Source: a virus. From it: a DNA stretch of 64,000 nt. The DNA lies in UHGV virus genome UHGV-0248979. One strand, given 5' to 3'. A program made the position numbers and the translations under genes. Of this stretch, positions 3,257 to 61,587 are shown one piece after another. Below the pieces are notes generated by a model. It did not search any database. It saw only the letters and a list, made by a program, of their open reading frames with translations, and was not told where the DNA came from. Positions within the stretch are counted from its first letter, which is position 1, and each line of letters starts with the position of its first letter.

Positions 3257-3307
3257 TATCTTAAATCCTTAAAATGAAAGTTAAAGAAATATCGGGGGAG
3301 GTTACCA

Positions 3308-10540: not shown

Positions 10541-11086
10541 TTAGAGGTGTTTTCCGATAACTTCCGAAACTAATTCGTAAAGGTCATCGTCACTGCACAC
10601 GTCTACGCTAATTCCGATATCGATACTACGACTGCGGAACCCTACTTTGAGCGTTTTACCGAATTCGGTTTGTAGGGCTTTATAGAGTCTATTCTTATCT
10701 TCTTTAAAGAGAGGAACAGGTAGTCTAACAGTGAACTTGTAATGTTCTTTCGAAACAAGTTCGTTAGAATAATTAAAACGTTTAGCCACACGAGTTCCGA
10801 TAATCTGTGTTATCAGCTTAAACATTTCTTCGTCGCTATACGGTGTTGCACCATAACCGATATCAATAGAATTTCTACGGAATCCTGCGCAGAATAATGC
10901 ACCGAATTGCTCACGGAATTCTTTGTGTAGAATATCTTTTTCTACGTCCCACAGCCCGTAACCCAAGTCAATCGTGAATTTGTATTTTTCTTTGTCGACT
11001 AATTCGTTAGTGTAATCAAGTCTAGTGAAGTTCATGGTATATTCTCCTAAAATGGTTTCGTTAAGTGAGAGTAACTGAACTCTCAC
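10541..11086 (-). CDS. hypothetical protein built from two tandem ~85-aa repeats
   Basis: Internal duplication (NELVDKEKYKFT...SIDIGYG vs NELVSKEHYKFT...SIDIGIS); likely true start is the ATG near 11035 (MNFTRLDY) with an AGGAG RBS. Confidence 0.6.
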   Translation of the reverse strand: MRVQLLSLNETILGEYTMNFTRLDYTNELVDKEKYKFTIDLGYGLWDVEKDILHKEFREQFGALFCAGFRRNSIDIGYGATPYSDEEMFKLITQIIGTRVAKRFNYSNELVSKEHYKFTVRLPVPLFKEDKNRLYKALQTEFGKTLKVGFRSRSIDIGISVDVCSDDDLYELVSEVIGKHL

Positions 11087-11106
11087 CTAGGTAATATATA
11101 TCTGAA
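11080..11106 (-). promoter_or_regulatory. conserved phage promoter element, copy 1
   Basis: Minus-strand TTCAGATATATATTACCTAGGTGAGAG followed by an 8-bp-stem hairpin, about 45-70 nt upstream of a start codon. Confidence 0.55.
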
Positions 11107-15323: not shown

Positions 15324-15350
15324 CTCTCTCCTAGGTAATATATATCTGAG
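15324..15350 (-). promoter_or_regulatory. conserved phage promoter element, copy 2
   Basis: Minus-strand CTCAGATATATATTACCTAGGAGAGAG plus a downstream hairpin. Confidence 0.55.
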
Positions 15351-18036: not shown

Positions 18037-18090
18037 GTATGTTTACCTCCTACGGTTGGGGGTCATAAAATATTGACTAAAAAACATTCA

Positions 18091-18100
18091 CCCCCCCCCC
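18091..18100 (-). repeat. homopolymeric G10 tract (C10 on the plus strand), 5' of P5
   Basis: Ten consecutive C read directly at 18091-18100. Confidence 0.9.
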
Positions 18101-18134: not shown

Positions 18135-18642
18135 TTAGCTAATTCTCAAATCACGCAGTGCGCCTGTCGATTTCATCACGTTTTGGAACGCAGCGCTGAT
18201 GTTATTAGTCCAGTAATAATGCTGTCCGTTAATAACCTGCTGATAGGCCAGCGCGCAGGTGTTACCACCTAAATTTACGGTAATGTTAGAGGCTCTGCCT
18301 CCTTGTAAGTAAACCGCTAAAGTAGGCTTTGCGTTGGCAACTATCGTCGTTAACTGTAACTCAATACCTACTAAAGTTCCCACCCCGCAGTTACCCGCGT
18401 TTTGAATGGTTCCCTGATTTTTCTGGTTTAACGGCCAGCTTGGTCCTACTGCGCCCCATTTCTTACCTAAAGAATCGCTATATGCAGCGGTTGCAATTTT
18501 ACAGCCCATAGATCGTCCCACCATTTGACTCATCATAAAAGGTCTACCCAATCCTAATTTACTACCAGCAGCGCTCATCCATTGTTCGCCCGTTTCGTTC
18601 TTGGCCGAAGAACCGACCCACGAACCGGTTACCCCCCCCCAT
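18135..18642 (-). CDS. adhesin-like tail fibre-associated protein, paralog B; 5' end put out of frame by a G9 tract
   Basis: ORF track gives 18135..18578. The same frame is open upstream (…GSWVGSSAKNETGEQW) and matches paralog A's N-terminus; an ATG with AGGAG RBS at 18642-18640 is +1 out of frame across the G9 run. Confidence 0.6.
18632..18640 (-). repeat. homopolymeric G9 tract overlapping the start codon of adhesin-like paralog B
   Basis: Nine consecutive C at 18632-18640; the minus strand reads AT-GGGGGGGGG-TAACC. Confidence 0.9.
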
Positions 18643-34397: not shown

Positions 34398-34424
34398 CTC
34401 TCACCTAAGTAATATATATCTGAG
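34398..34424 (-). promoter_or_regulatory. conserved phage promoter element, copy 3
   Basis: Minus-strand CTCAGATATATATTACTTAGGTGAGAG plus a downstream hairpin. Confidence 0.55.
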
Positions 34425-34468: not shown

Positions 34469-35092
34469 TTAGTTTGCTAAAATGTACGTAACAATCTCTG
34501 CGGCTTTCAAACGGTAATCGTCATTCTGCGTTACCGGTAATAACGCGTGAAGACAACCGCCTTCTGTTAAGATGTGGTGCGCGAATCGATAACGGTCACG
34601 TAAACCATCCCAACATTGGTTGTCCTTTAGATACTTAACTGTAAGTACCTCATCATCCCAATTCTTACCTTGTTCTTCTACACGTTTCTTAAATCGTGTT
34701 AACGCTGTTGGGTAATCAACATCTGTCCAAACATAAAGGTCAGGAGTGTGGAAATGACGAGTTAGCTTACGTTGGAAAACCACATCCTTACCATCTGTCC
34801 CCTGATAAACGATCGTTGAAGGACAGAAGCGATCGAAAATAACGACATCGTACTCGTCAACAACATGGTCCAACGTGTGAAGGAAATCATCACACATCGC
34901 TTCAGCAATTTTTGTATTCGAAGCAGACTGTACAACCAAACTGCGTGCACGAATGCCCGCCTCGGTTTCAGATGTCGGATGGTTCCGAACGCAAACTTTT
35001 AATCCGGCGGATTCCAACATCGCTTTTACCATTTTACACAACGTTGATTTCCCAGAAAAGTCAGGACCATCAATAGACACTGTCTTAAGCAT
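34469..35092 (-). CDS. tmk: thymidylate (dTMP) kinase-like nucleoside monophosphate kinase
   Basis: P-loop DGPDFSGKST near the N-terminus; DRF...YQG motif at the expected spacing; 207 aa. Confidence 0.75.
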   Translation of the reverse strand: MLKTVSIDGPDFSGKSTLCKMVKAMLESAGLKVCVRNHPTSETEAGIRARSLVVQSASNTKIAEAMCDDFLHTLDHVVDEYDVVIFDRFCPSTIVYQGTDGKDVVFQRKLTRHFHTPDLYVWTDVDYPTALTRFKKRVEEQGKNWDDEVLTVKYLKDNQCWDGLRDRYRFAHHILTEGGCLHALLPVTQNDDYRLKAAEIVTYILAN

Positions 35093-35826: not shown

Positions 35827-36198
35827 TTAGAACCCCTCAAGAACAGCTTTCACAAATTCGTAAACCGTGCGTCGGTGTTCTTCAAGCGGATAAACAAACT
35901 TAGAATAATCGTTGTTCCAGACAACCGGATAGAGGTCGCCATCACAACTTAAATAGCTCTTACGAACCATGTAATAATCTAAACCTACACGGAAGTTTAA
36001 CGACAGACTACCGTGTTTACTACAAACGTGTAGCTGGAGCGATTTCACACCGTCGTGAGTTGGCGATTCAATCGTTTCCGCATACAATACATCCGAACAC
36101 TGTTCTATAGCGCTAACGACATCTCTGAGGTTGTTGTCTGCATCGATGGTCGCTTTTCGGAGAGCGTCGGTGTATTGCTGAAGTTCTCGATAGAACAT
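35827..36198 (-). CDS. hypothetical protein
   Basis: 123-aa ORF with AGGAG RBS. Confidence 0.55.
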   Translation of the reverse strand: MFYRELQQYTDALRKATIDADNNLRDVVSAIEQCSDVLYAETIESPTHDGVKSLQLHVCSKHGSLSLNFRVGLDYYMVRKSYLSCDGDLYPVVWNNDYSKFVYPLEEHRRTVYEFVKAVLEGF

Positions 36199-36737
36199 CC
36201 TGCTAATCTCCTGTCTCTACCGTAAGGTAGGGGAAATGCTTTGTGTTCATATTCTGCAACGACATACGCAGGATAGAACAAAAGGTATTTATAGAACGTA
36301 GACAACGTAACGTTTTTCTGGGTGGCTAAAAAGTAATTAAGATCGGGGTTGTCTGGAAAAGCAAAATGCAATCCTGTGTATACCTGACCTTTATACTCCC
36401 CATTAAAGGGTGTGACTGCACATCGTGGGTGTGTCGGCTCGACGTGTAACCAACGACTTCTTACGTGATAAACGCCACGGACTGTCGCGTTTCGTGTTTT
36501 ACCCAAATAACGACAACGAATATTCTTTTCCCACGCCGCACGTTGAGTGGGTGAACCCAGAGAAACAAACCGCGTTAAAGCTTCAGGTGTAAAGTAATCA
36601 AAAATGCCGGTCGGTAAACACCAACACGCTTTATCGATTCGTACCACTCTCCAACCAGGACGAAAACCCACAGCGTAACGCTCTACACCAAAAGTATATC
36701 TAGACCCGTCATGAAACGGTACTAATCTTGCAGCCAT
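36105..36737 (-). CDS. hypothetical protein (3' end overlaps the next gene)
   Basis: 210-aa ORF; 94-nt overlap with 35827..36198. Confidence 0.5.
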   Translation of the reverse strand: MAARLVPFHDGSRYTFGVERYAVGFRPGWRVVRIDKACWCLPTGIFDYFTPEALTRFVSLGSPTQRAAWEKNIRCRYLGKTRNATVRGVYHVRSRWLHVEPTHPRCAVTPFNGEYKGQVYTGLHFAFPDNPDLNYFLATQKNVTLSTFYKYLLFYPAYVVAEYEHKAFPLPYGRDRRLAGCSIENFSNTPTLSEKRPSMQTTTSEMSLAL

Positions 36738-36738
36738 T

Positions 36739-37206
36739 TTAGATTTCCTTTATCATTTCCCTGCATTCGGTACGGAATCCCATCTTCTCATACAAGGAGA
36801 TAGCTTTAACGTTGTTGTCTAACACATCCAGACTCATCCAACCACAGCCTTTGGACTTTCCGTATTCACGGACTTTGTCCATAAGCGCACGGCCTACCCC
36901 TTGAGAGCGTGCTTCAGGAACCACATAGTAATTCCCGATGTAAACAAACGTGTCCTTTGAGCAAGAACCCATTGAGAACGTCATAAATCCCAGAAGCTGT
37001 TCGTTGTCGTCCACCGCACACGCACAGAGATAATCTTGAGGCCAAATCTCTTCTAAACGTTCGATGGGGTTGAACGTGTCACGTCCGGTTAACTGACTAA
37101 TACGCACTTTCTCTTCTGCGAACAGCATGTTGTGCAGTTTGAGTACCTGGTCGCCGTATAACTTTCCGTATTTACTGTCGGGTTTGAGAATAATAGTAAT
37201 ACGCAT
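36739..37206 (-). CDS. GNAT family N-acetyltransferase
   Basis: 155 aa; motif VVPEARSQGVGRALM. Confidence 0.75.
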   Translation of the reverse strand: MRITIILKPDSKYGKLYGDQVLKLHNMLFAEEKVRISQLTGRDTFNPIERLEEIWPQDYLCACAVDDNEQLLGFMTFSMGSCSKDTFVYIGNYYVVPEARSQGVGRALMDKVREYGKSKGCGWMSLDVLDNNVKAISLYEKMGFRTECREMIKEI

Positions 37207-38339
37207 TATTTAACCTCAATCAGCGACAACCTGCACCATTCCAGTAAGCCCTCCGCAACACGCACCAACGAAGTAGTAAAGGCATCTTCTAAACGCAGCG
37301 CGTTTTTATACCGGACAGTAGCATCGCGTAACTCACGGCCATCTAACGATTTCAGCTCTTTTTTCATTCGCTGAACTTCATCGTAAATACCGGTATAACC
37401 AACACTACGTCGTTTCGTACCACGCTGACGTAACGCTCGGATAATGTTTCTAACAGCGTCTAGAGCTGAACCGATTTCGTGCAAGTTCAGAGATTTGATT
37501 GTGTGGCCAAAATCACCATCGCGGGCAATCGCCCACTCAATCTTACCGTTGTCGTGTTCAACGACCACCACGTTACCAGGCCACGGATACGCTTTCACCG
37601 TTTTAAACGGATCAATAATACCGAACAGTCCTGCGCTTCGTTTAATCGCCCAGTTCGTCGACCGACCCACTTTCTCCAAACCGCTCTCGGTAACTTTCTT
37701 GCTCTTACCGATAATAGTGCGTGTTTTAACGGTATACTCGTTGACCATCGCATCCATTGCGCTCAGGTTCTTACTGAATTCAATACATGCTTTTACGTTA
37801 GGCTTGTCTTCTAAACAAACTTTGGTTGTCCAACTTCCCGTGTCGCAGTCGACAGGCTTTAACGTGTCCTTGATGCCGAGTAAACTTAGCTTTGCGGTTA
37901 ACTTTTGCAGTTTGCGTTCTAAAGTCGTCGCTTTAGACGTCGCTTCTTTTAATTCCTTTATGACTTCTTTACCGGCGGCTTCCGCGAAGTCGACAAAACG
38001 TAACGCAAGTTGCTTAGAATGCTTACCTGCGAAGTTTCCAGTTGCCTTAGCCCCCGCTACCGCTGCCTTTCCAGCAACACGACTAGCCCCTTTAACCGCT
38101 CTGCCGGTCGCGCGTGCGACCGCTTTACCTACTCCTGCGTAAGGCTCAGTGTCCGCAACAAATTGCGCGCGTTCCATCATCGCTGCAGACTCTAGCGCAA
38201 CCTGCACATCGTCTAAAACCCACCGTTTTCGGATAGCGACAATCGCCGGATAATTGTCTTTAACATTAAGCGACTCTAACGCGACCAATCGATCGTAGTC
38301 ATCGCAAAGGACTTCTAAATCGGAATCTAATGTTGACAT
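37206..38339 (-). CDS. hypothetical protein
   Basis: 377 aa with an Ala/Lys/Gly-rich segment. Confidence 0.55.
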   Translation of the reverse strand: MSTLDSDLEVLCDDYDRLVALESLNVKDNYPAIVAIRKRWVLDDVQVALESAAMMERAQFVADTEPYAGVGKAVARATGRAVKGASRVAGKAAVAGAKATGNFAGKHSKQLALRFVDFAEAAGKEVIKELKEATSKATTLERKLQKLTAKLSLLGIKDTLKPVDCDTGSWTTKVCLEDKPNVKACIEFSKNLSAMDAMVNEYTVKTRTIIGKSKKVTESGLEKVGRSTNWAIKRSAGLFGIIDPFKTVKAYPWPGNVVVVEHDNGKIEWAIARDGDFGHTIKSLNLHEIGSALDAVRNIIRALRQRGTKRRSVGYTGIYDEVQRMKKELKSLDGRELRDATVRYKNALRLEDAFTTSLVRVAEGLLEWCRLSLIEVK

Positions 38340-38389
38340 CCTTTACCCCATTTTAAGCTAAAGCGGGGAGAAGCCCGCCCTGACTAACT

Positions 38390-38938
38390 TCATAATAAGC
38401 GTAGGTCTTCTAACCACTTAGATGCATCCGTAACATGATAATAGCAAGGGATGTTCAGTGACTGCGCATAGCGGACACCCATTGCTGTACCACCTTTTGG
38501 ATTTCCCTTTTTATCGTGTTCAGCGTAATAATAGACCGCATCTACGGGGTTGTCTAAAGCGTCACCGGATACAATATTTAAGTTTCGTCCATGCAAAGCC
38601 CAAGCTATATCCGATAGCTTATCGGGATTAGGGTGAAGCGATGCCACAATCCCACGATAACGAATGTCTTGAGGGATAACGAGAAAGTCAACATTCGGAT
38701 GTAACTTACGTAACCACAACTTACGATCGTCGGGCAAATAGCAAATATGTGGACCTGGTTCAGTACGCGCTAACATAAACTGTAATTGGTCTGGCCCTTT
38801 ATAACAACCACCCGAACGGGTTTCGATTTTGTGCTGTTTATTACGAAGAATTTTGAACCCGCGTTGCAACACGTCCAACATTTCTTGCATCGTGTCTTCG
38901 GGAGTTTCTCGAGAACCAATAATAGCGATTTTATACAT
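38390..38938 (-). CDS. SLOG/DprA/LOG-like Rossmann-fold protein (putative nucleotide-processing enzyme)
   Basis: N-terminal KIAIIGSRETP followed by SGGCYKGPD, resembling the GSR + glycine-loop motifs of DprA/LOG-type domains; weak by-eye call. Confidence 0.4.
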   Translation of the reverse strand: MYKIAIIGSRETPEDTMQEMLDVLQRGFKILRNKQHKIETRSGGCYKGPDQLQFMLARTEPGPHICYLPDDRKLWLRKLHPNVDFLVIPQDIRYRGIVASLHPNPDKLSDIAWALHGRNLNIVSGDALDNPVDAVYYYAEHDKKGNPKGGTAMGVRYAQSLNIPCYYHVTDASKWLEDLRLL

Positions 38939-38967
38939 TTGTCACCTCCATACTGAAGTTGTGAAGT

Positions 38968-39003
38968 GAAAAAAAGAAAGCAGGAGAGAACCCCGAAAAG
39001 GTT
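38968..39003 (-). terminator. rho-independent terminator
   Basis: Hairpin ggagagaacc-ccgaaaa-ggttctctcc with an adjacent T-run. Confidence 0.65.
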
Positions 39004-39023
39004 CTCTCCTATCGTTGACGATA

Positions 39024-39686
39024 TCACTCTTCTAAACTACTTAAAACGGCAGTTTCGAGTAACGCTTTACCCATCCAGACATCCAACTCACCATCTAAGT
39101 CAGCTAAAGGGCGCTTATCCAGTTCGTTGTTGTAGTTAAGTCCGTCAAGGGTTTTATTCGTAATAATTTGCCCAATATGAAGCGGTAGAATAAAACGATT
39201 TCGTGCGCTATAAATAAACGAATCACATTCGTAAACTACCGCATAGCGCTCAAGATCGTCATCATACTCAACATGGCACTGCGAGCCAGTGTCCCATGCA
39301 CGTGACAAAACCATACCACGATCTTGACACATCTTCTCTACTGACGCTTTCGCGGACTTTGCCCATTTATCGTAATTTTTCGGTTGGCCGTTTTCGAAAT
39401 CGAACCAATCCAGATACTTACCGGGAATCTCAAGAAAGTCGTTTAGTTGAAGTTTTGTGTAAGATACCATCACCGCGTCATTAATATCGTTGCGGTTAGT
39501 TAACTTTACCCGATACCGACCTTCCGGTGTGGGTGCACCCATTAAAGAAACATCCACTTTCTCAGCCGAAAGCTTTTTACGTACACTGCCGTTATTACAG
39601 TAGCTGACGAGGTTGAGTAAGTTCTGTCTATGACCAACTTCAAAATCAATTACAAAAGACATACAAACTCCGCGGGGGTTAATCAC
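39024..39686 (-). CDS. hypothetical protein
   Basis: 220-aa ORF. Confidence 0.55.
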   Translation of the reverse strand: MINPRGVCMSFVIDFEVGHRQNLLNLVSYCNNGSVRKKLSAEKVDVSLMGAPTPEGRYRVKLTNRNDINDAVMVSYTKLQLNDFLEIPGKYLDWFDFENGQPKNYDKWAKSAKASVEKMCQDRGMVLSRAWDTGSQCHVEYDDDLERYAVVYECDSFIYSARNRFILPLHIGQIITNKTLDGLNYNNELDKRPLADLDGELDVWMGKALLETAVLSSLEE

Positions 39687-40078
39687 TAATACCCGTATAA
39701 CGGGTAGCGTGCGGTGATCTCATCACCGACATAAAAAGTTAAACGTTGGATTTTAATACTTTTATTTACATAGGGTACAGTTTCTAACGTTACCTTTACA
39801 CCGGCAGAACAGCTTCCAGGATCAACAAACTGATATGTACGTCGTTTGATATTTACCAAATAGTAGCCACCCGCTGGGCACAGTTCGGTTTTGCCATAAT
39901 TTACCGTGGCAAACTCATCGTTTTGAACCGCAACGACTGGTTGGTCGGTAGATTTAAATACGACAGGTTTATCCCCTGGCACCGTAGGTTCAAAACGACT
40001 AATATCGTGCGGTTTAAATTCCGCTATCGCGGAAAATGAAAGTAACGTTAGAAAAAGGGTAATAACAGATCTTTTCAT
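39686..40078 (-). CDS. secreted (periplasmic) protein with signal peptide
   Basis: 130 aa; N-terminal signal sequence MKRSVITLFLTLLSFSAIA; four Cys in the mature part. Confidence 0.6.
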   Translation of the reverse strand: MKRSVITLFLTLLSFSAIAEFKPHDISRFEPTVPGDKPVVFKSTDQPVVAVQNDEFATVNYGKTELCPAGGYYLVNIKRRTYQFVDPGSCSAGVKVTLETVPYVNKSIKIQRLTFYVGDEITARYPLYGY

Positions 40079-40573: not shown

Positions 40574-41050
40574 CTAATAAATCTTATCCGCAACAGAGAG
40601 AAAGATGGGGGTGTTTTCAATAAAATCCACCAAATATCCTTCTTCTGGCGGGGTGTATGACGAATCAATGTTACTGTTCGTCATACGAAAATACCGACGG
40701 GAGTCACTGGCAATAAACCATCGGTCTATTTGGAAGCCTTTTTTGGAAAAGAAACACAGCCCGTCGATGTTTGAGGGATGAACACGACACATCACCATTT
40801 GACGATCTGAATTGAGTTGAACGTATTTCAGTAAAAAGGAACCTACACCACTGCGACGAGAACCCTCGGCCACCACCAGATAAATAAGATTCCCCGGTTC
40901 CCAGATTGCAACCCCATGTGTAATATCGTCTTCAACGGCCAAAGTGATTCTAACCGGCGTTTCACGAATCGAATTTAAGTCTTTCACATATTCGCACAAT
41001 TCAGGAAATTTAGCAGAGATTTTGTCTTCGGTAATATTTAACGGTTGCAT
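40574..41050 (-). CDS. GNAT family N-acetyltransferase
   Basis: 158 aa; motif VVAEGSRRSGVGSFLL. Confidence 0.7.
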   Translation of the reverse strand: MQPLNITEDKISAKFPELCEYVKDLNSIRETPVRITLAVEDDITHGVAIWEPGNLIYLVVAEGSRRSGVGSFLLKYVQLNSDRQMVMCRVHPSNIDGLCFFSKKGFQIDRWFIASDSRRYFRMTNSNIDSSYTPPEEGYLVDFIENTPIFLSVADKIY

Positions 41051-61559: not shown

Positions 61560-61587
61560 TCTCACCTAGGTAATATATATCTGAAAT
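61560..61587 (-). promoter_or_regulatory. conserved phage promoter element, copy 4
   Basis: Minus-strand TTCAGATATATATTACCTAGGTGAGAG, about 50 nt upstream of the 47-aa sORF. Confidence 0.55.

What the first reader, a model, noticed from the sequence alone, without database searches (positions are those of the whole stretch)
38390..38938. SLOG/DprA/LOG-like Rossmann-fold protein
The N-terminal KIAIIGSRETP and following SGGCYKGPD resemble the motifs of DprA/LOG/SLOG domains, which bind nucleotides or single-stranded DNA and appear in nucleotide-signalling and defence or counter-defence contexts. The call is weak and by eye only.
Basis: inference. Interest (0 to 1): 0.4.

Follow-up and report, generated by a model that had tools for sequence, protein, structure and literature searches.

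The report
Stand-alone DprA-like SLOG protein, jumbo phage
The flagged gene is real and encodes a small nucleotide- or DNA-binding protein of the DprA/LOG ("SLOG") fold that is already annotated as "DprA-like" in related giant phages, so it is an ordinary member of a known family whose function has never been tested.

Summary
Window 38390..38938, on the minus strand, is a 182-aa gene with a GGAGGTGA ribosome-binding site, and the quoted motifs sit at residues 3-13 and 42-50.

The fold call is supported:
- The protein matches PHROG 768, "DprA-like DNA recombination-mediator protein", over its full length (E 9e-45).
- The AlphaFold2 model (pLDDT 93.9) is a Rossmann-like fold. Its best PDB matches are SLOG proteins (TM1055, Moco carrier protein, LOG, YpsA), all at TM 0.5 or below.
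- A 47-sequence family profile finds only DprA structures in the PDB (E 1.5e-4).

It is not a canonical DprA. It has a single domain, lacks the SAM and winged-helix domains, and gets no Pfam hit on its own. It is not a LOG enzyme either, because the catalytic Glu is absent in all 47 aligned relatives.

Two invariant arginines, R10 and R118, align with the DprA/ShosA arginines needed for ssDNA binding. I therefore favour ssDNA binding, acting as a recombination or replication accessory (about 0.45). The main rival is a counter-defence binder or processor of ADP-ribose-type nucleotides (about 0.35). That rival rests on fusions of this domain to NADAR, Macro and DUF4326 domains, and on a distant phage SLOG protein that blocks Avs type III.

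No signalling partner lies nearby. Orthologues are present in 62 related jumbo phage records, and several RefSeq records already carry the name. This is a new member of a known kind, and interest is low to moderate.

The parts
38390..38938 (-). Coding sequence of the 182-aa stand-alone DprA-like SLOG-domain protein (stop codon included).
   Evidence: ORF list. PHROG 768 at E 9e-45. AF2 model with pLDDT 93.9 and order b1-a1-b2-a2-b3-[a-b-a-a insert]-b4-a-b5-a. Orthologues found.
38909..38917 (-). Codons for G8-S9-R10, the loop after strand 1. R10 is the equivalent of H. pylori DprA R52.
   Evidence: G8 and R10 are invariant and S9 is present in 45 of 47 sequences. They align to the DprA GSR/GTR motif in PDB chains 4ljr, 3maj and 3uqz and in E. 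coli Smf. The role of R52 comes from PMC12961424.
38789..38815 (-). Codons for S42-G-G-C-Y-K-G-P-D50, the loop after strand 2. This is the SGxAxGxD motif shared with DprA.
   Evidence: G43, G48 and D50 are invariant. The motif aligns to DprA SGGALGVD / SGLARGID.
38582..38635 (-). Codons for H102-P103 through H116-G-R118-N119, covering the family 'HP' motif and the 'HxRN' helix start. R118 is the equivalent of H. pylori DprA R143.
   Evidence: H102 is present in 45/47 and H116 in 46/47 sequences; R118 and N119 are present in 47/47. The extended hhalign alignment places LHGRN on Smf FPRRN (low confidence on its own).
38471..38494 (-). Codons for G149-G150-T151 through R156, the loop and helix after strand 4. 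GGT corresponds to DprA SG(S/T). R156 corresponds to H. pylori DprA R170.
   Evidence: GGT is invariant. Position 156 is K or R in 19 of 47 sequences. Position 154 (T+3) is A or G only, so the LOG catalytic Glu is absent.
38942..38949 (-). Ribosome-binding site GGAGGTGA, 3 nt upstream of the ATG.
   Evidence: Read directly from the sequence.
38971..39011 (-). Intrinsic terminator (14-bp stem, 3-nt loop, T-run) ending the upstream gene 39024..39686. It lies only about 30 nt before the DprA-like start codon.
   Evidence: Terminator scan. RNA fold of -21 kcal/mol with z = -4.26 and 0 of 200 shuffles folding as well.

Best explanation
The gene encodes a single-domain SLOG (Smf/DprA-LOG) Rossmann-like protein of the DprA-like phage family PHROG 768. 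It is a conserved accessory gene of the SPN3US/Asesino/CR5-like jumbo phages. All of its conserved residues are the DprA hallmark motifs and lie in loops or helix starts that follow the strands: GSRxTP after strand 1, SGGxxGxD after strand 2, HP, HxRN at a helix start, and GGT after strand 4. From the SLOG topology I infer that they line one pocket at the C-terminal edge of the sheet; no model coordinates were available to check this. I infer that this pocket grips the phosphate and base of a nucleotide. Its two invariant arginines, R10 and R118, correspond to the arginines that DprA and ShosA need to bind single-stranded DNA, so the most likely ligand is ssDNA. On this reading the protein binds ssDNA made during phage replication or recombination. 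It would then either shield that ssDNA or pass it to a recombinase or helicase, acting as a minimal DprA-type mediator in phages that have a RecA homologue but no UvsY. What is shown: the gene, the fold, the family membership, the motif conservation, and the absence of the LOG catalytic residue. What is inferred: the pocket geometry, the ligand (ssDNA), any partner protein, and the biological role.
For: - The protein matches PHROG 768 over its full length at E 9e-45.
- The AF2 model has pLDDT 93.9 and pTM 0.90 with SLOG-type topology. Its best PDB fold matches are SLOG proteins.
- Its best viral matches are phage 'DprA-like' proteins and Phi92_gp047 at TM 0.7-0.8.
- The only significant PDB hits of the 47-sequence profile are DprA from H. 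pylori, R. palustris and S. pneumoniae (E 1.5e-4 to 1.4e-3).
- hhalign against an enterobacterial Smf profile gives 83% probability over the first 52 columns.
- When that alignment is extended, GSR, SGxAxGxD, RN and S/GG(S/T) line up in the same order.
- In H. pylori DprA, R52, R143 and R170 are the key ssDNA-binding residues, and double mutants of the equivalent ShosA arginines (R139E/R261E, R139E/R234E) lose ssDNA binding (PMC12961424). These map to R10, R118 and R156. R10 and R118 are invariant in 47/47 sequences.
- In larger proteins the domain is fused to SF1 RecD/PIF1-type helicases (6 of 52) and to an AlkB-like oxygenase, both of which are DNA-handling enzymes.
- Iyer et al. 2021 (PMC7824862) note that jumbo phages of groups 1 and 2 conserve a DprA/Smf copy. 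They also note that UvsY is confined to group 2 while the RecA homologue is widespread.
- RuvC-like resolvase and thymidylate kinase genes lie in the same minus-strand block.
Against: - Similarity to DprA is statistically solid only for the N-terminal 50-75 residues. The extended alignment scores 57% probability in local mode and 11% in global mode.
- In fold space DprA is not the nearest neighbour. Small-ligand SLOG proteins come first, and the only DprA-type entry in the top 50 is ShosA 8zvb at rank 27 (E 0.025).
- The third ssDNA arginine is basic in only 19 of 47 sequences.
- Family pI ranges from 4.4 to 10.7, so there is no conserved basic surface.
- The SAM and winged-helix domains of true DprA are absent.
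- T4-like phages that already have UvsY also carry this gene, so it cannot simply replace UvsY.
- Fusions to NADAR (5 of 52), Macro, DUF4326 and ART-PolyVal point towards ADP-ribose chemistry.
- No binding or genetic experiment on this family was found in the literature searches.
Confidence: 0.45

Rival explanations
1. The protein is a counter-defence SLOG protein. Its pocket binds, as a sponge or sensor, or cleaves a small ADP-ribose-derived or adenine-nucleotide immune signal or toxin, such as a cADPR isomer, ADPR or AMP. Alternatively it recognises ADP-ribosylated ssDNA. Either way it blunts a host defence system rather than serving recombination.
For: - Multi-domain relatives fuse this domain to NADAR (5 of 52), Macro, DUF4326 and ART-PolyVal, and it occurs inside giant polyvalent proteins of 1000-5200 aa.
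- Iyer et al. 2022 (PMC9503650) predict that viral SLOG domains with exactly these fusions sense or process ADPr derivatives.
- The nearest solved folds are small-ligand SLOG proteins (TM1055, Moco carrier protein, LOG, YpsA) rather than DprA.
- Conservation is confined to the motif loops, with extra near-invariant polar residues (T12, H102, H116, T151), and pI varies widely.
- A distantly related phage SLOG protein, PhiDruSM1 ORF83, was found by knockout to inhibit AVAST type III and is predicted to bind AMP. I identified its CAjan counterpart, gp82, whose R89, N90, T112 and D114 match exactly.
Against: - ORF83/gp82 belongs to a different SLOG family, probably YAcAr. It relates only weakly to this family: hmmsearch E 0.003 in a 324-ORF database and hhalign 30%.
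- No ThsA-type SLOG structure appears among the top 50 fold matches.
- The LOG catalytic Glu is missing.
- PADLOC gives no hit.
- No TIR, SIR2, cyclase, Macro, NADAR or Nudix gene lies next to the gene here or in the six other phage groups examined.
- NADAR and Macro fusions are equally compatible with an ssDNA-targeting module, because these enzymes can reverse DNA ADP-ribosylation (from my own knowledge of DarT/DarG/NADAR, not tested here).
Confidence: 0.35
2. The protein is a LOG-type phosphoribohydrolase that cleaves the N-glycosidic bond of AMP or a modified nucleotide.
For: LOG-family structures (1ydh, 1rcu) are among the best fold matches. A GGT motif sits where LOG has GGxGT.
Against: The LOG signature is PGGxGTxxE with a catalytic Glu (from my own knowledge of the family). 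Position T151+3 is Ala or Gly in all 47 sequences. No Pfam Lysine_decarbox/LOG hit was obtained for the query or for any of the 47 members at E<0.1. TM-scores are only 0.44-0.50.
Confidence: 0.05
3. The protein mimics a host DprA-type protein. It could be a surrogate ShosA-like antitoxin or a RecA-binding decoy that neutralises the ShosTA system or hijacks host RecA.
For: ShosA is a DprA-like antitoxin whose ssDNA binding and RecA binding are needed to neutralise ShosT (PMC12961424). ShosA 8zvb appears weakly among the fold matches (rank 27, E 0.025).
Against: The match to ShosA is weak (TM 0.23). ShosA needs its SAM domain for stability and acts as a dimer, and that domain is absent here. PADLOC models, which include the ShosTA components, gave no hit. 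There are no data on RecA contact.
Confidence: 0.05

Closest known systems
PHROG 768, 'DprA-like DNA recombination-mediator protein' (for example Erwinia phage Wellington gp112, Cronobacter phage CR5, Escherichia phage phi92 gp047)
   Same: The query matches the profile over its full length (E 9e-45). Identity to Asesino, Wellington and SPFM orthologues is 55-61%, and the position between unknown genes and the internal head protein gene is syntenic. Predicted folds agree at TM 0.7-0.8.
   Different: The window's protein lacks a 13-21-aa insertion after helix 2 that most jumbo-phage orthologues carry (182 aa against 188-203 aa). No member of the family has been characterised experimentally, as far as my searches show.
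Bacterial DprA/Smf (Pfam PF02481; PDB 4LJK/4LJR, 3UQZ, 3MAJ)
   Same: It has the same SLOG Rossmann-like core, with the GSR, SGxAxGxD, RN and S/GG(S/T) motifs in the same order. The two arginines essential for ssDNA binding are conserved as R10 and R118.
   Different: The query gets no PF02481 hit itself. There is no SAM (PF25317) or winged-helix (PF17782) domain. The C-terminal half is too diverged for a significant alignment. The family has its own near-invariant HP and H116 residues. Dimerisation and RecA-binding determinants cannot be assessed.
ShosA, the DprA-like antitoxin of the ShosTA defence system (PDB 8ZVA/8ZVB)
   Same: It is a DprA-type fold working in a phage-host conflict, and its ssDNA-binding arginines are equivalent to R10 and R118.
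   Different: ShosA is a larger host protein with a SAM domain, an extra C-terminal helix and a partner toxin. The fold match is weak, PADLOC gave no hit, and no PRTase toxin gene is nearby.
PhiDruSM1 ORF83 / CAjan gp82 (YAcAr/DUF2493-like SLOG; anti-AVAST type III)
   Same: It is a small stand-alone phage SLOG protein that also has an 'RN' motif and a GG(x)GT loop, and amoeba-virus homologues are fused to DUF4326. It is the only experimentally supported function I found for a small stand-alone phage SLOG protein.
   Different: It is a different family: 130 aa with a PGGAGTMD motif. hhalign to this family's profile gives only 30% and hmmsearch gives E 0.003. Only 5 of 47 family members touch Pfam YAcAr.
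LOG / TM1055 / Moco carrier protein / YpsA (small-ligand SLOG proteins)
   Same: These are the best PDB fold matches: 1rcu at E 1e-3 and TM 0.50, then 2iz5-7, 1ydh and 2nx2.
   Different: TM-scores are 0.5 or below and identity is 10-17%. The LOG catalytic Glu is absent. There are no Pfam hits to these families apart from weak LDcluster4 hits in 7 of 47 members.

Membership tests
SLOG (Smf/DprA-LOG) superfamily | Rossmann-like three-layer a/b fold with a parallel sheet (b1-a-b2-a-b3...b4-a-b5), recognised by fold comparison with known members. | tested here: met
   The AF2 model has pLDDT 93.9 and that strand and helix order. The best-ranked PDB matches are mostly TM1055, Moco carrier protein, LOG, YpsA and the TRPM2 N-terminal region, with probability 0.9-1.0 but TM only 0.44-0.50.
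SLOG (Smf/DprA-LOG) superfamily | Conserved Gly-rich or polar loop after strand 1 and a GxD/E-type motif after strand 2 that contact the nucleotide. | tested here: met
   G8-S9-R10 and S42-G43...G48-x-D50 are invariant or near-invariant in 47 sequences.
PHROG 768 (phage DprA-like proteins) | A significant, near full-length match to the family profile. | tested here: met
   E 9.1e-45, 153.6 bits, residues 1-172 against profile positions 3-170 of 191.
DprA/Smf (Pfam PF02481 DNA_processg_A) | Score at or above the Pfam gathering threshold (29.6 bits). | tested here: not met
   The query gets no PF02481 hit even at E<=10. Of the ten distant members scanned individually, only P0060 passes, with 33.4 bits. 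22 of 47 members hit at E<0.1.
DprA/Smf | ssDNA-contacting arginines equivalent to H. pylori R52 (GSR), R143 (RN) and R170. | tested here: inconclusive
   R10 aligns confidently with R52. R118 and R156 align with R143 and R170 only in a low-confidence extension. R10 and R118 are invariant, while position 156 is basic in 19 of 47 sequences.
DprA/Smf | Three-domain architecture: N-terminal SAM, Rossmann-like core, C-terminal winged helix (PF25317 + PF02481 + PF17782, as in E. coli Smf). | tested here: not met
   The protein is 182 aa and the single fold domain fills it. The query gets no PF25317 or PF17782 hit, whereas E. coli DprA carries all three.
DprA/Smf | Binds ssDNA, dimerises, and binds and loads RecA. 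| not testable with these tools
   This needs EMSA, SEC and pull-down experiments, or multimer and ligand co-folding. None was available.
LOG (cytokinin riboside 5'-monophosphate phosphoribohydrolase, Pfam PF03641) | PGGxGTxxE motif with a catalytic Glu three residues after the Thr. | tested here: not met
   The query sequence is KGGTAMGV. Position T151+3 is Gly or Ala in 47 of 47 sequences. No PF03641 hit was obtained.
YAcAr/YspA (Pfam PF10686), the probable family of the anti-Avs3 protein ORF83 | A significant profile match to PF10686 or to ORF83/CAjan gp82. | tested here: not met
   The query gets no hit and 5 of 47 members hit weakly (best E 0.0021). hhalign of A2 against gp82 gives 30% over 33 columns. 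The assignment of gp82 itself to PF10686 is by eye and was not scanned.
ThsA-type SLOG (Thoeris cADPR sensor) | Fold or sequence match to the ThsA SLOG domain, and fusion to or neighbourhood with SIR2, TIR or Macro. | tested here: not met
   No ThsA entry is in the top 50 PDB fold matches. PADLOC gave no hit. No SIR2 or TIR gene lies within about 5 kb. Ligand binding itself was not testable.

The most novel reading that the evidence does not exclude
PHROG 768 may not be a recombination mediator at all. It could be a widespread, uncharacterised counter-defence module found both as a stand-alone protein in large virulent phages and as a domain inside injected polyvalent proteins. On this reading its DprA-derived pocket, together with the family-specific HP/HxRN histidines, recognises ADP-ribosylated ssDNA or an ADPr- or adenine-nucleotide immune signal. 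It would then sequester, sense or cleave that ligand, working with NADAR, Macro or DUF4326 partners in trans or in cis.
Probability: 0.3. Interest if true: 0.55.

Novelty: new member of a known kind. Interest (0 to 1): 0.25.

Why it matters
The call itself changes little. Orthologues in related jumbo phages already carry the name "DprA-like DNA recombination-mediator protein", and comparative genomics papers have noted DprA/Smf copies in jumbo phages.

The family as a whole is more interesting:
- It is large. A profile search found 1702 cluster representatives at E<=1e-3, and 425 phage records hold a homologue.
- Almost none of it is covered by Pfam.
- I found no published experiment on it.
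- It recurs inside polyvalent proteins next to helicase, NADAR and Macro domains.

Whether it handles ssDNA or ADP-ribose-type ligands would decide if the "recombination mediator" label copied across hundreds of phage genomes is right. It might also reveal a new anti-defence activity.

Tried and rejected
**Searches with the single sequence**
- Pfam, NCBIfam and PADLOC gave nothing relevant. The only Pfam line, FOG1-like_PR at E 0.014, is noise.
- phmmer against PDB sequences, and the profile of 20 close homologues against the PDB, returned only chance matches. The broader 47-sequence profile was needed.
- Megablast of 6 kb around the gene found no phage in the INPHARED copy, so the phage is not a deposited genome.

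**Leads that failed**
- An apparent adjacency to a nicotinamide-nucleotide adenylyltransferase and PnuC in Klebsiella phage K54lambda1.1.1 is an artefact. That record's feature table is offset from its sequence, and the real neighbour is PhoH-like, as in other Vequintavirinae.
- I guessed that tblastn hit H33 was the orthologue of the anti-Avs3 protein ORF83. It is a Vequintavirinae fragment. The true counterpart, found in Seuratvirus CAjan, is gp82, which belongs to a different SLOG family.
- A hairpin downstream of the gene (about 38363-38378) folds no better than shuffled sequence (z -0.08), so I do not call it a terminator.
- No conserved gene partner emerged across phage groups.

**Things that could not be obtained or found**
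- The supplement of the jumbo-phage paper and the original SLOG classification paper (Burroughs et al. 2015) were not available. I therefore could not check which SLOG clade its authors assign this family to.
- The window has no tRNA genes and no Rfam match.

Full report
**1. The observation**

The coordinates 38390..38938 are exactly one ATG-to-stop ORF on the minus strand, encoding 182 aa.
- The two quoted strings are present. KIAIIGSRETP is residues 3-13 and SGGCYKGPD is residues 42-50.
- A GGAGGTGA ribosome-binding site lies 3 nt upstream of the ATG, at 38942-38949.
- A strong intrinsic terminator for the preceding gene sits at 38981-39011(-), followed by a T-run. It folds at -21 kcal/mol with z = -4.26.
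- The gene is real. The identical protein is recorded in at least 42 blocks of public assemblies, on contigs of up to 0.2-1 Mb. Full-length homologues run from 95% down to 40% identity.
- Local GC content (0.446 for 38001-40000) is similar to neighbouring 2-kb bins of the window.

**2. The genome**

No deposited phage matches at the DNA level. At the protein level the nearest relatives are the jumbo phages Erwinia Asesino, Wellington and phiEaH2, the Salmonella SPFM/SPLA5c group (Seoulvirus), and Cronobacter CR5, at 47-61% identity.

Gene order is syntenic with Wellington and SPLA5c:
- RuvC-like resolvase
- unknown genes
- GNAT acetyltransferase (40574-41050)
- three unknown genes
- the DprA-like gene
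- internal head protein (37206-38339; PHROG 2497, with a weak phiKZ_IP hit)
- a second GNAT acetyltransferase (36739-37206)
- further unknown genes
- thymidylate kinase (34469-35092)

An orthologue is present in 62 SPN3US/Asesino/CR5-like records. Many RefSeq copies are already named "DprA-like DNA recombination-mediator protein". Nothing within about 5 kb resembles a nucleotide-signalling partner such as a TIR, SIR2, cyclase, Macro, NADAR or Nudix gene.

**3. What the protein is**

With the single sequence, Pfam, NCBIfam and PADLOC give nothing, and the PDB sequence search returns noise. PHROG 768, "DprA-like DNA recombination-mediator protein", matches over the full length at E 9e-45.

An alignment of 20 close homologues (A1) gave a confident AlphaFold2 model with pLDDT 93.9 and pTM 0.90. 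Its order is b1-a1-b2-a2-b3, then an inserted helix-strand-helix-helix segment, then b4-a-b5-a.

Foldseek against the PDB returns SLOG-superfamily proteins first: TM1055 (1rcu), Moco carrier protein (2iz5-7, 6y01), Arabidopsis LOG (1ydh), YpsA (2nx2) and the TRPM2 N-terminal region. TM-scores reach only 0.44-0.50. ShosA (8zvb) appears at rank 27, and no canonical DprA entry is in the top 50. Against viral models the best matches are phi92 gp047-like and "DprA-like" phage proteins at TM 0.7-0.8. YspA/DUF2493 proteins come further down.

An exhaustive profile search found 1702 cluster representatives at E<=1e-3. Most are stand-alone proteins of about 160-210 aa. In others the match is a single domain inside proteins of 1000-5200 aa.

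I built a 47-sequence alignment of diverse full-length members (A2), with these results:
- The only significant PDB hits are DprA from H. pylori, R. palustris and S. pneumoniae (E 1.5e-4 to 1.4e-3). They cover the first 50-75 residues.
- 22 of 47 members hit Pfam DNA_processg_A at E<0.1, 7 hit SLOG LDcluster4 and 5 hit YAcAr. In the ten distant members scanned individually, one (P0060) passed the DprA gathering threshold.
- hhalign against an enterobacterial Smf profile (A3) gives 83% probability over 52 columns.
- When the alignment is forced to extend, all the DprA hallmark motifs line up in order: GSR, SGxAxGxD, LHGRN on FPRRN, and GGT on SGS. The extension is not significant on its own, scoring 57% in local mode and 11% in global mode.

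**4. Residue-level reading**

Across the 47 sequences:
- G8, R10, G43, G48, D50, R118, N119, G149, G150, T151 and A158 are invariant.
- S9, T12, S42, H102, H116 and G125 are at least 90% conserved.

All lie in the loops or helix starts that follow the strands in the model. From the SLOG topology I infer that they line a single pocket at the C-terminal edge of the sheet.

The ShosTA paper (PMC12961424) states that H. pylori DprA R52, R143 and R170 are the key ssDNA-binding residues. It also shows that double mutants of the equivalent ShosA arginines (R139E/R261E and R139E/R234E) lose ssDNA binding. By the alignments these correspond to R10, R118 and R156. R10 and R118 are invariant. Position 156 is Lys or Arg in only 19 of 47 sequences.

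The LOG catalytic Glu, in the PGGxGTxxE motif as I recall the family, is absent. Position T151+3 is Ala or Gly in every sequence. The family has its own HP motif (H102-P103) and H116, which canonical DprA lacks. In the multi-domain members H116 is often Met, while the HP motif stays invariant. Family pI ranges from 4.4 to 10.7, so no basic surface is conserved.

**5. Context elsewhere**

The family shows no constant neighbour:
- In Vequintavirinae the gene directly follows a PhoH-like ATPase gene.
- In Karamvirus CC31 its start overlaps the stop of RNA ligase 2.
- In Phapecoctavirus and Acinetobacter Lazarusvirus it sits among small unknown genes.

Among 52 multi-domain relatives the fused domains are as follows:
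- SF1 RecD/PIF1-type helicase: 6
- NADAR: 5
- DUF7831: 2
- DUF4326, Macro, ART-PolyVal and an AlkB-like oxygenase: 1 each

One further Macro fusion appeared.

**6. Literature**

- Iyer et al. 2021 (PMC7824862) note that group 1 and 2 jumbo phages conserve a DprA/Smf copy that could serve as an additional ssDNA-binding protein. They also note that RecA homologues are widespread while UvsY is limited to group 2.
- Iyer et al. 2022 (PMC9503650) argue that viral SLOG domains, often fused to Macro, NADAR, DUF4326 or SF1 helicases, sense or process ADP-ribose derivatives in counter-defence.
- A knockout screen of phage PhiDruSM1 found that ORF83, annotated Smf/DprA, inhibits AVAST type III (10.1101/2024.04.14.589459). 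A follow-up predicts AMP binding through R89, N90, T112 and D114 (10.1101/2025.06.06.658234).
- I located the CAjan counterpart, gp82. It is 130 aa and those four residues match exactly. It carries a PGGAGTMD motif and relates only weakly to the present family: hmmsearch E 0.003 and hhalign 30%. It is therefore a sister SLOG family, probably YAcAr, and not the same family.
- I found no experiment on PHROG 768 itself.

**7. Explanation**

What is shown:
- It is a genuine, conserved, single-domain SLOG-fold protein.
- By sequence it is closest to DprA. In fold space it lies about equally far from all solved SLOG families.
- It has the DprA nucleotide-contact motifs.
- It lacks DprA's SAM and winged-helix domains and the LOG catalytic residue.

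What is inferred, and the weights I give:
- I commit, at about 0.45, to ssDNA binding through the GSR/RN residues. On this reading the protein acts as a minimal DprA-type ssDNA-handling accessory in replication or recombination. The support is the invariant R10 and R118, the helicase and AlkB-like fusions, and the RecA-positive, UvsY-negative gene content of these phages.
- The main rival, at about 0.35, is a counter-defence binder or processor of ADPr- or adenine-nucleotide ligands, or of ADP-ribosylated DNA. The support is the NADAR, Macro, DUF4326 and ART fusions, the nearest folds being small-ligand binders, conservation confined to the motif loops together with variable pI, and the ORF83 precedent.
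- A LOG-type hydrolase and a ShosA or RecA decoy are each unlikely, at about 0.05.

**8. Novelty and verdict**

The gene is an orthologue of proteins already named DprA-like in RefSeq jumbo-phage genomes, so it is a new member of a known kind. It fails the membership tests for canonical DprA (threshold and architecture), for LOG (catalytic motif) and for YAcAr.

The remaining interest is that the whole family is large, nearly invisible to Pfam and untested experimentally, so its routine "recombination mediator" label is an inference. I score interest at 0.25.

Noticed in passing
window 11086-11101, 15330-15345, 34404-34419, 61565-61580 (all minus strand): A 16-nt motif, ATATATATTACYTAGG, occurs four times, against 0.08 expected and 0 of 100 shuffles reaching four. 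At least three copies lie in intergenic DNA upstream of minus-strand genes. It looks like a phage-specific promoter element. None lies directly upstream of the DprA-like gene.
   Followed up: partly
window 38971-39011 (minus strand): A very stable intrinsic terminator (14-bp stem, z -4.26) sits only about 30 nt before the DprA-like start codon. This leaves almost no room for a sigma-70-type promoter, so the gene must be read through the terminator or be served by an unrecognised phage promoter. A TATG lies just before the RBS. As I recall, phiKZ late transcripts start at such a motif, but I did not test this.
   Followed up: partly
window 36739-37206 and 40574-41050 (minus strand): Two GNAT acetyltransferase genes of different PHROGs (3810 and 7861, with a weak cross-hit) bracket the block that contains the DprA-like gene. 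The same pair is conserved in Wellington and SPLA5c. Their substrates are unknown.
   Followed up: no
window about 3257-3290, 18037-18100 and 18579-18640 (minus-strand upstream regions): Runs of 8-10 consecutive G lie in intergenic regions upstream of three minus-strand genes. At least one is part of a G-run/C-run hairpin (cgggggggggtggtaacctcccccg). Their purpose is unknown.
   Followed up: no
window 35827-36198 and 36105-36737 (minus strand): Two ORFs with strong PHROG matches (8535 and 9255) overlap by 94 nt. The equivalent Wellington genes gp117 and gp118 overlap by 40 nt. The Logan gene calls omit the 210-aa ORF. The start of the downstream gene or the overlap may deserve a check.
   Followed up: no
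window 38340-38389, compared with L001 8575-8838 and L003 5622-5894: Relatives (Wellington gp113 and the SPLA5c equivalent) have an 87-90-aa ORF between the DprA-like gene and the internal head protein gene. The window has only a 50-nt spacer there. The window's DprA-like protein also lacks the 13-21-aa insertion after helix 2 seen in most orthologues.
   Followed up: partly
L005 (OY979426.1, Klebsiella phage vB_Kpl_K54lambda1.1.1): The deposited feature table is out of register with the sequence. The CDS labelled nicotinamide-nucleotide adenylyltransferase overlaps, in another frame, a clean 212-aa DprA-like ORF that follows a PhoH-like ORF. Annotation-based context from this record is unreliable.
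   Followed up: yes
L011 6867-7259 (Escherichia phage CAjan gp82, annotated 'GTP-binding domain'): This 130-aa protein has R89, N90, T112 and D114 exactly as described for the anti-AVAST-III protein ORF83 of PhiDruSM1. It is therefore that protein's counterpart in a deposited Seuratvirus, and its current annotation is probably wrong.
   Followed up: partly
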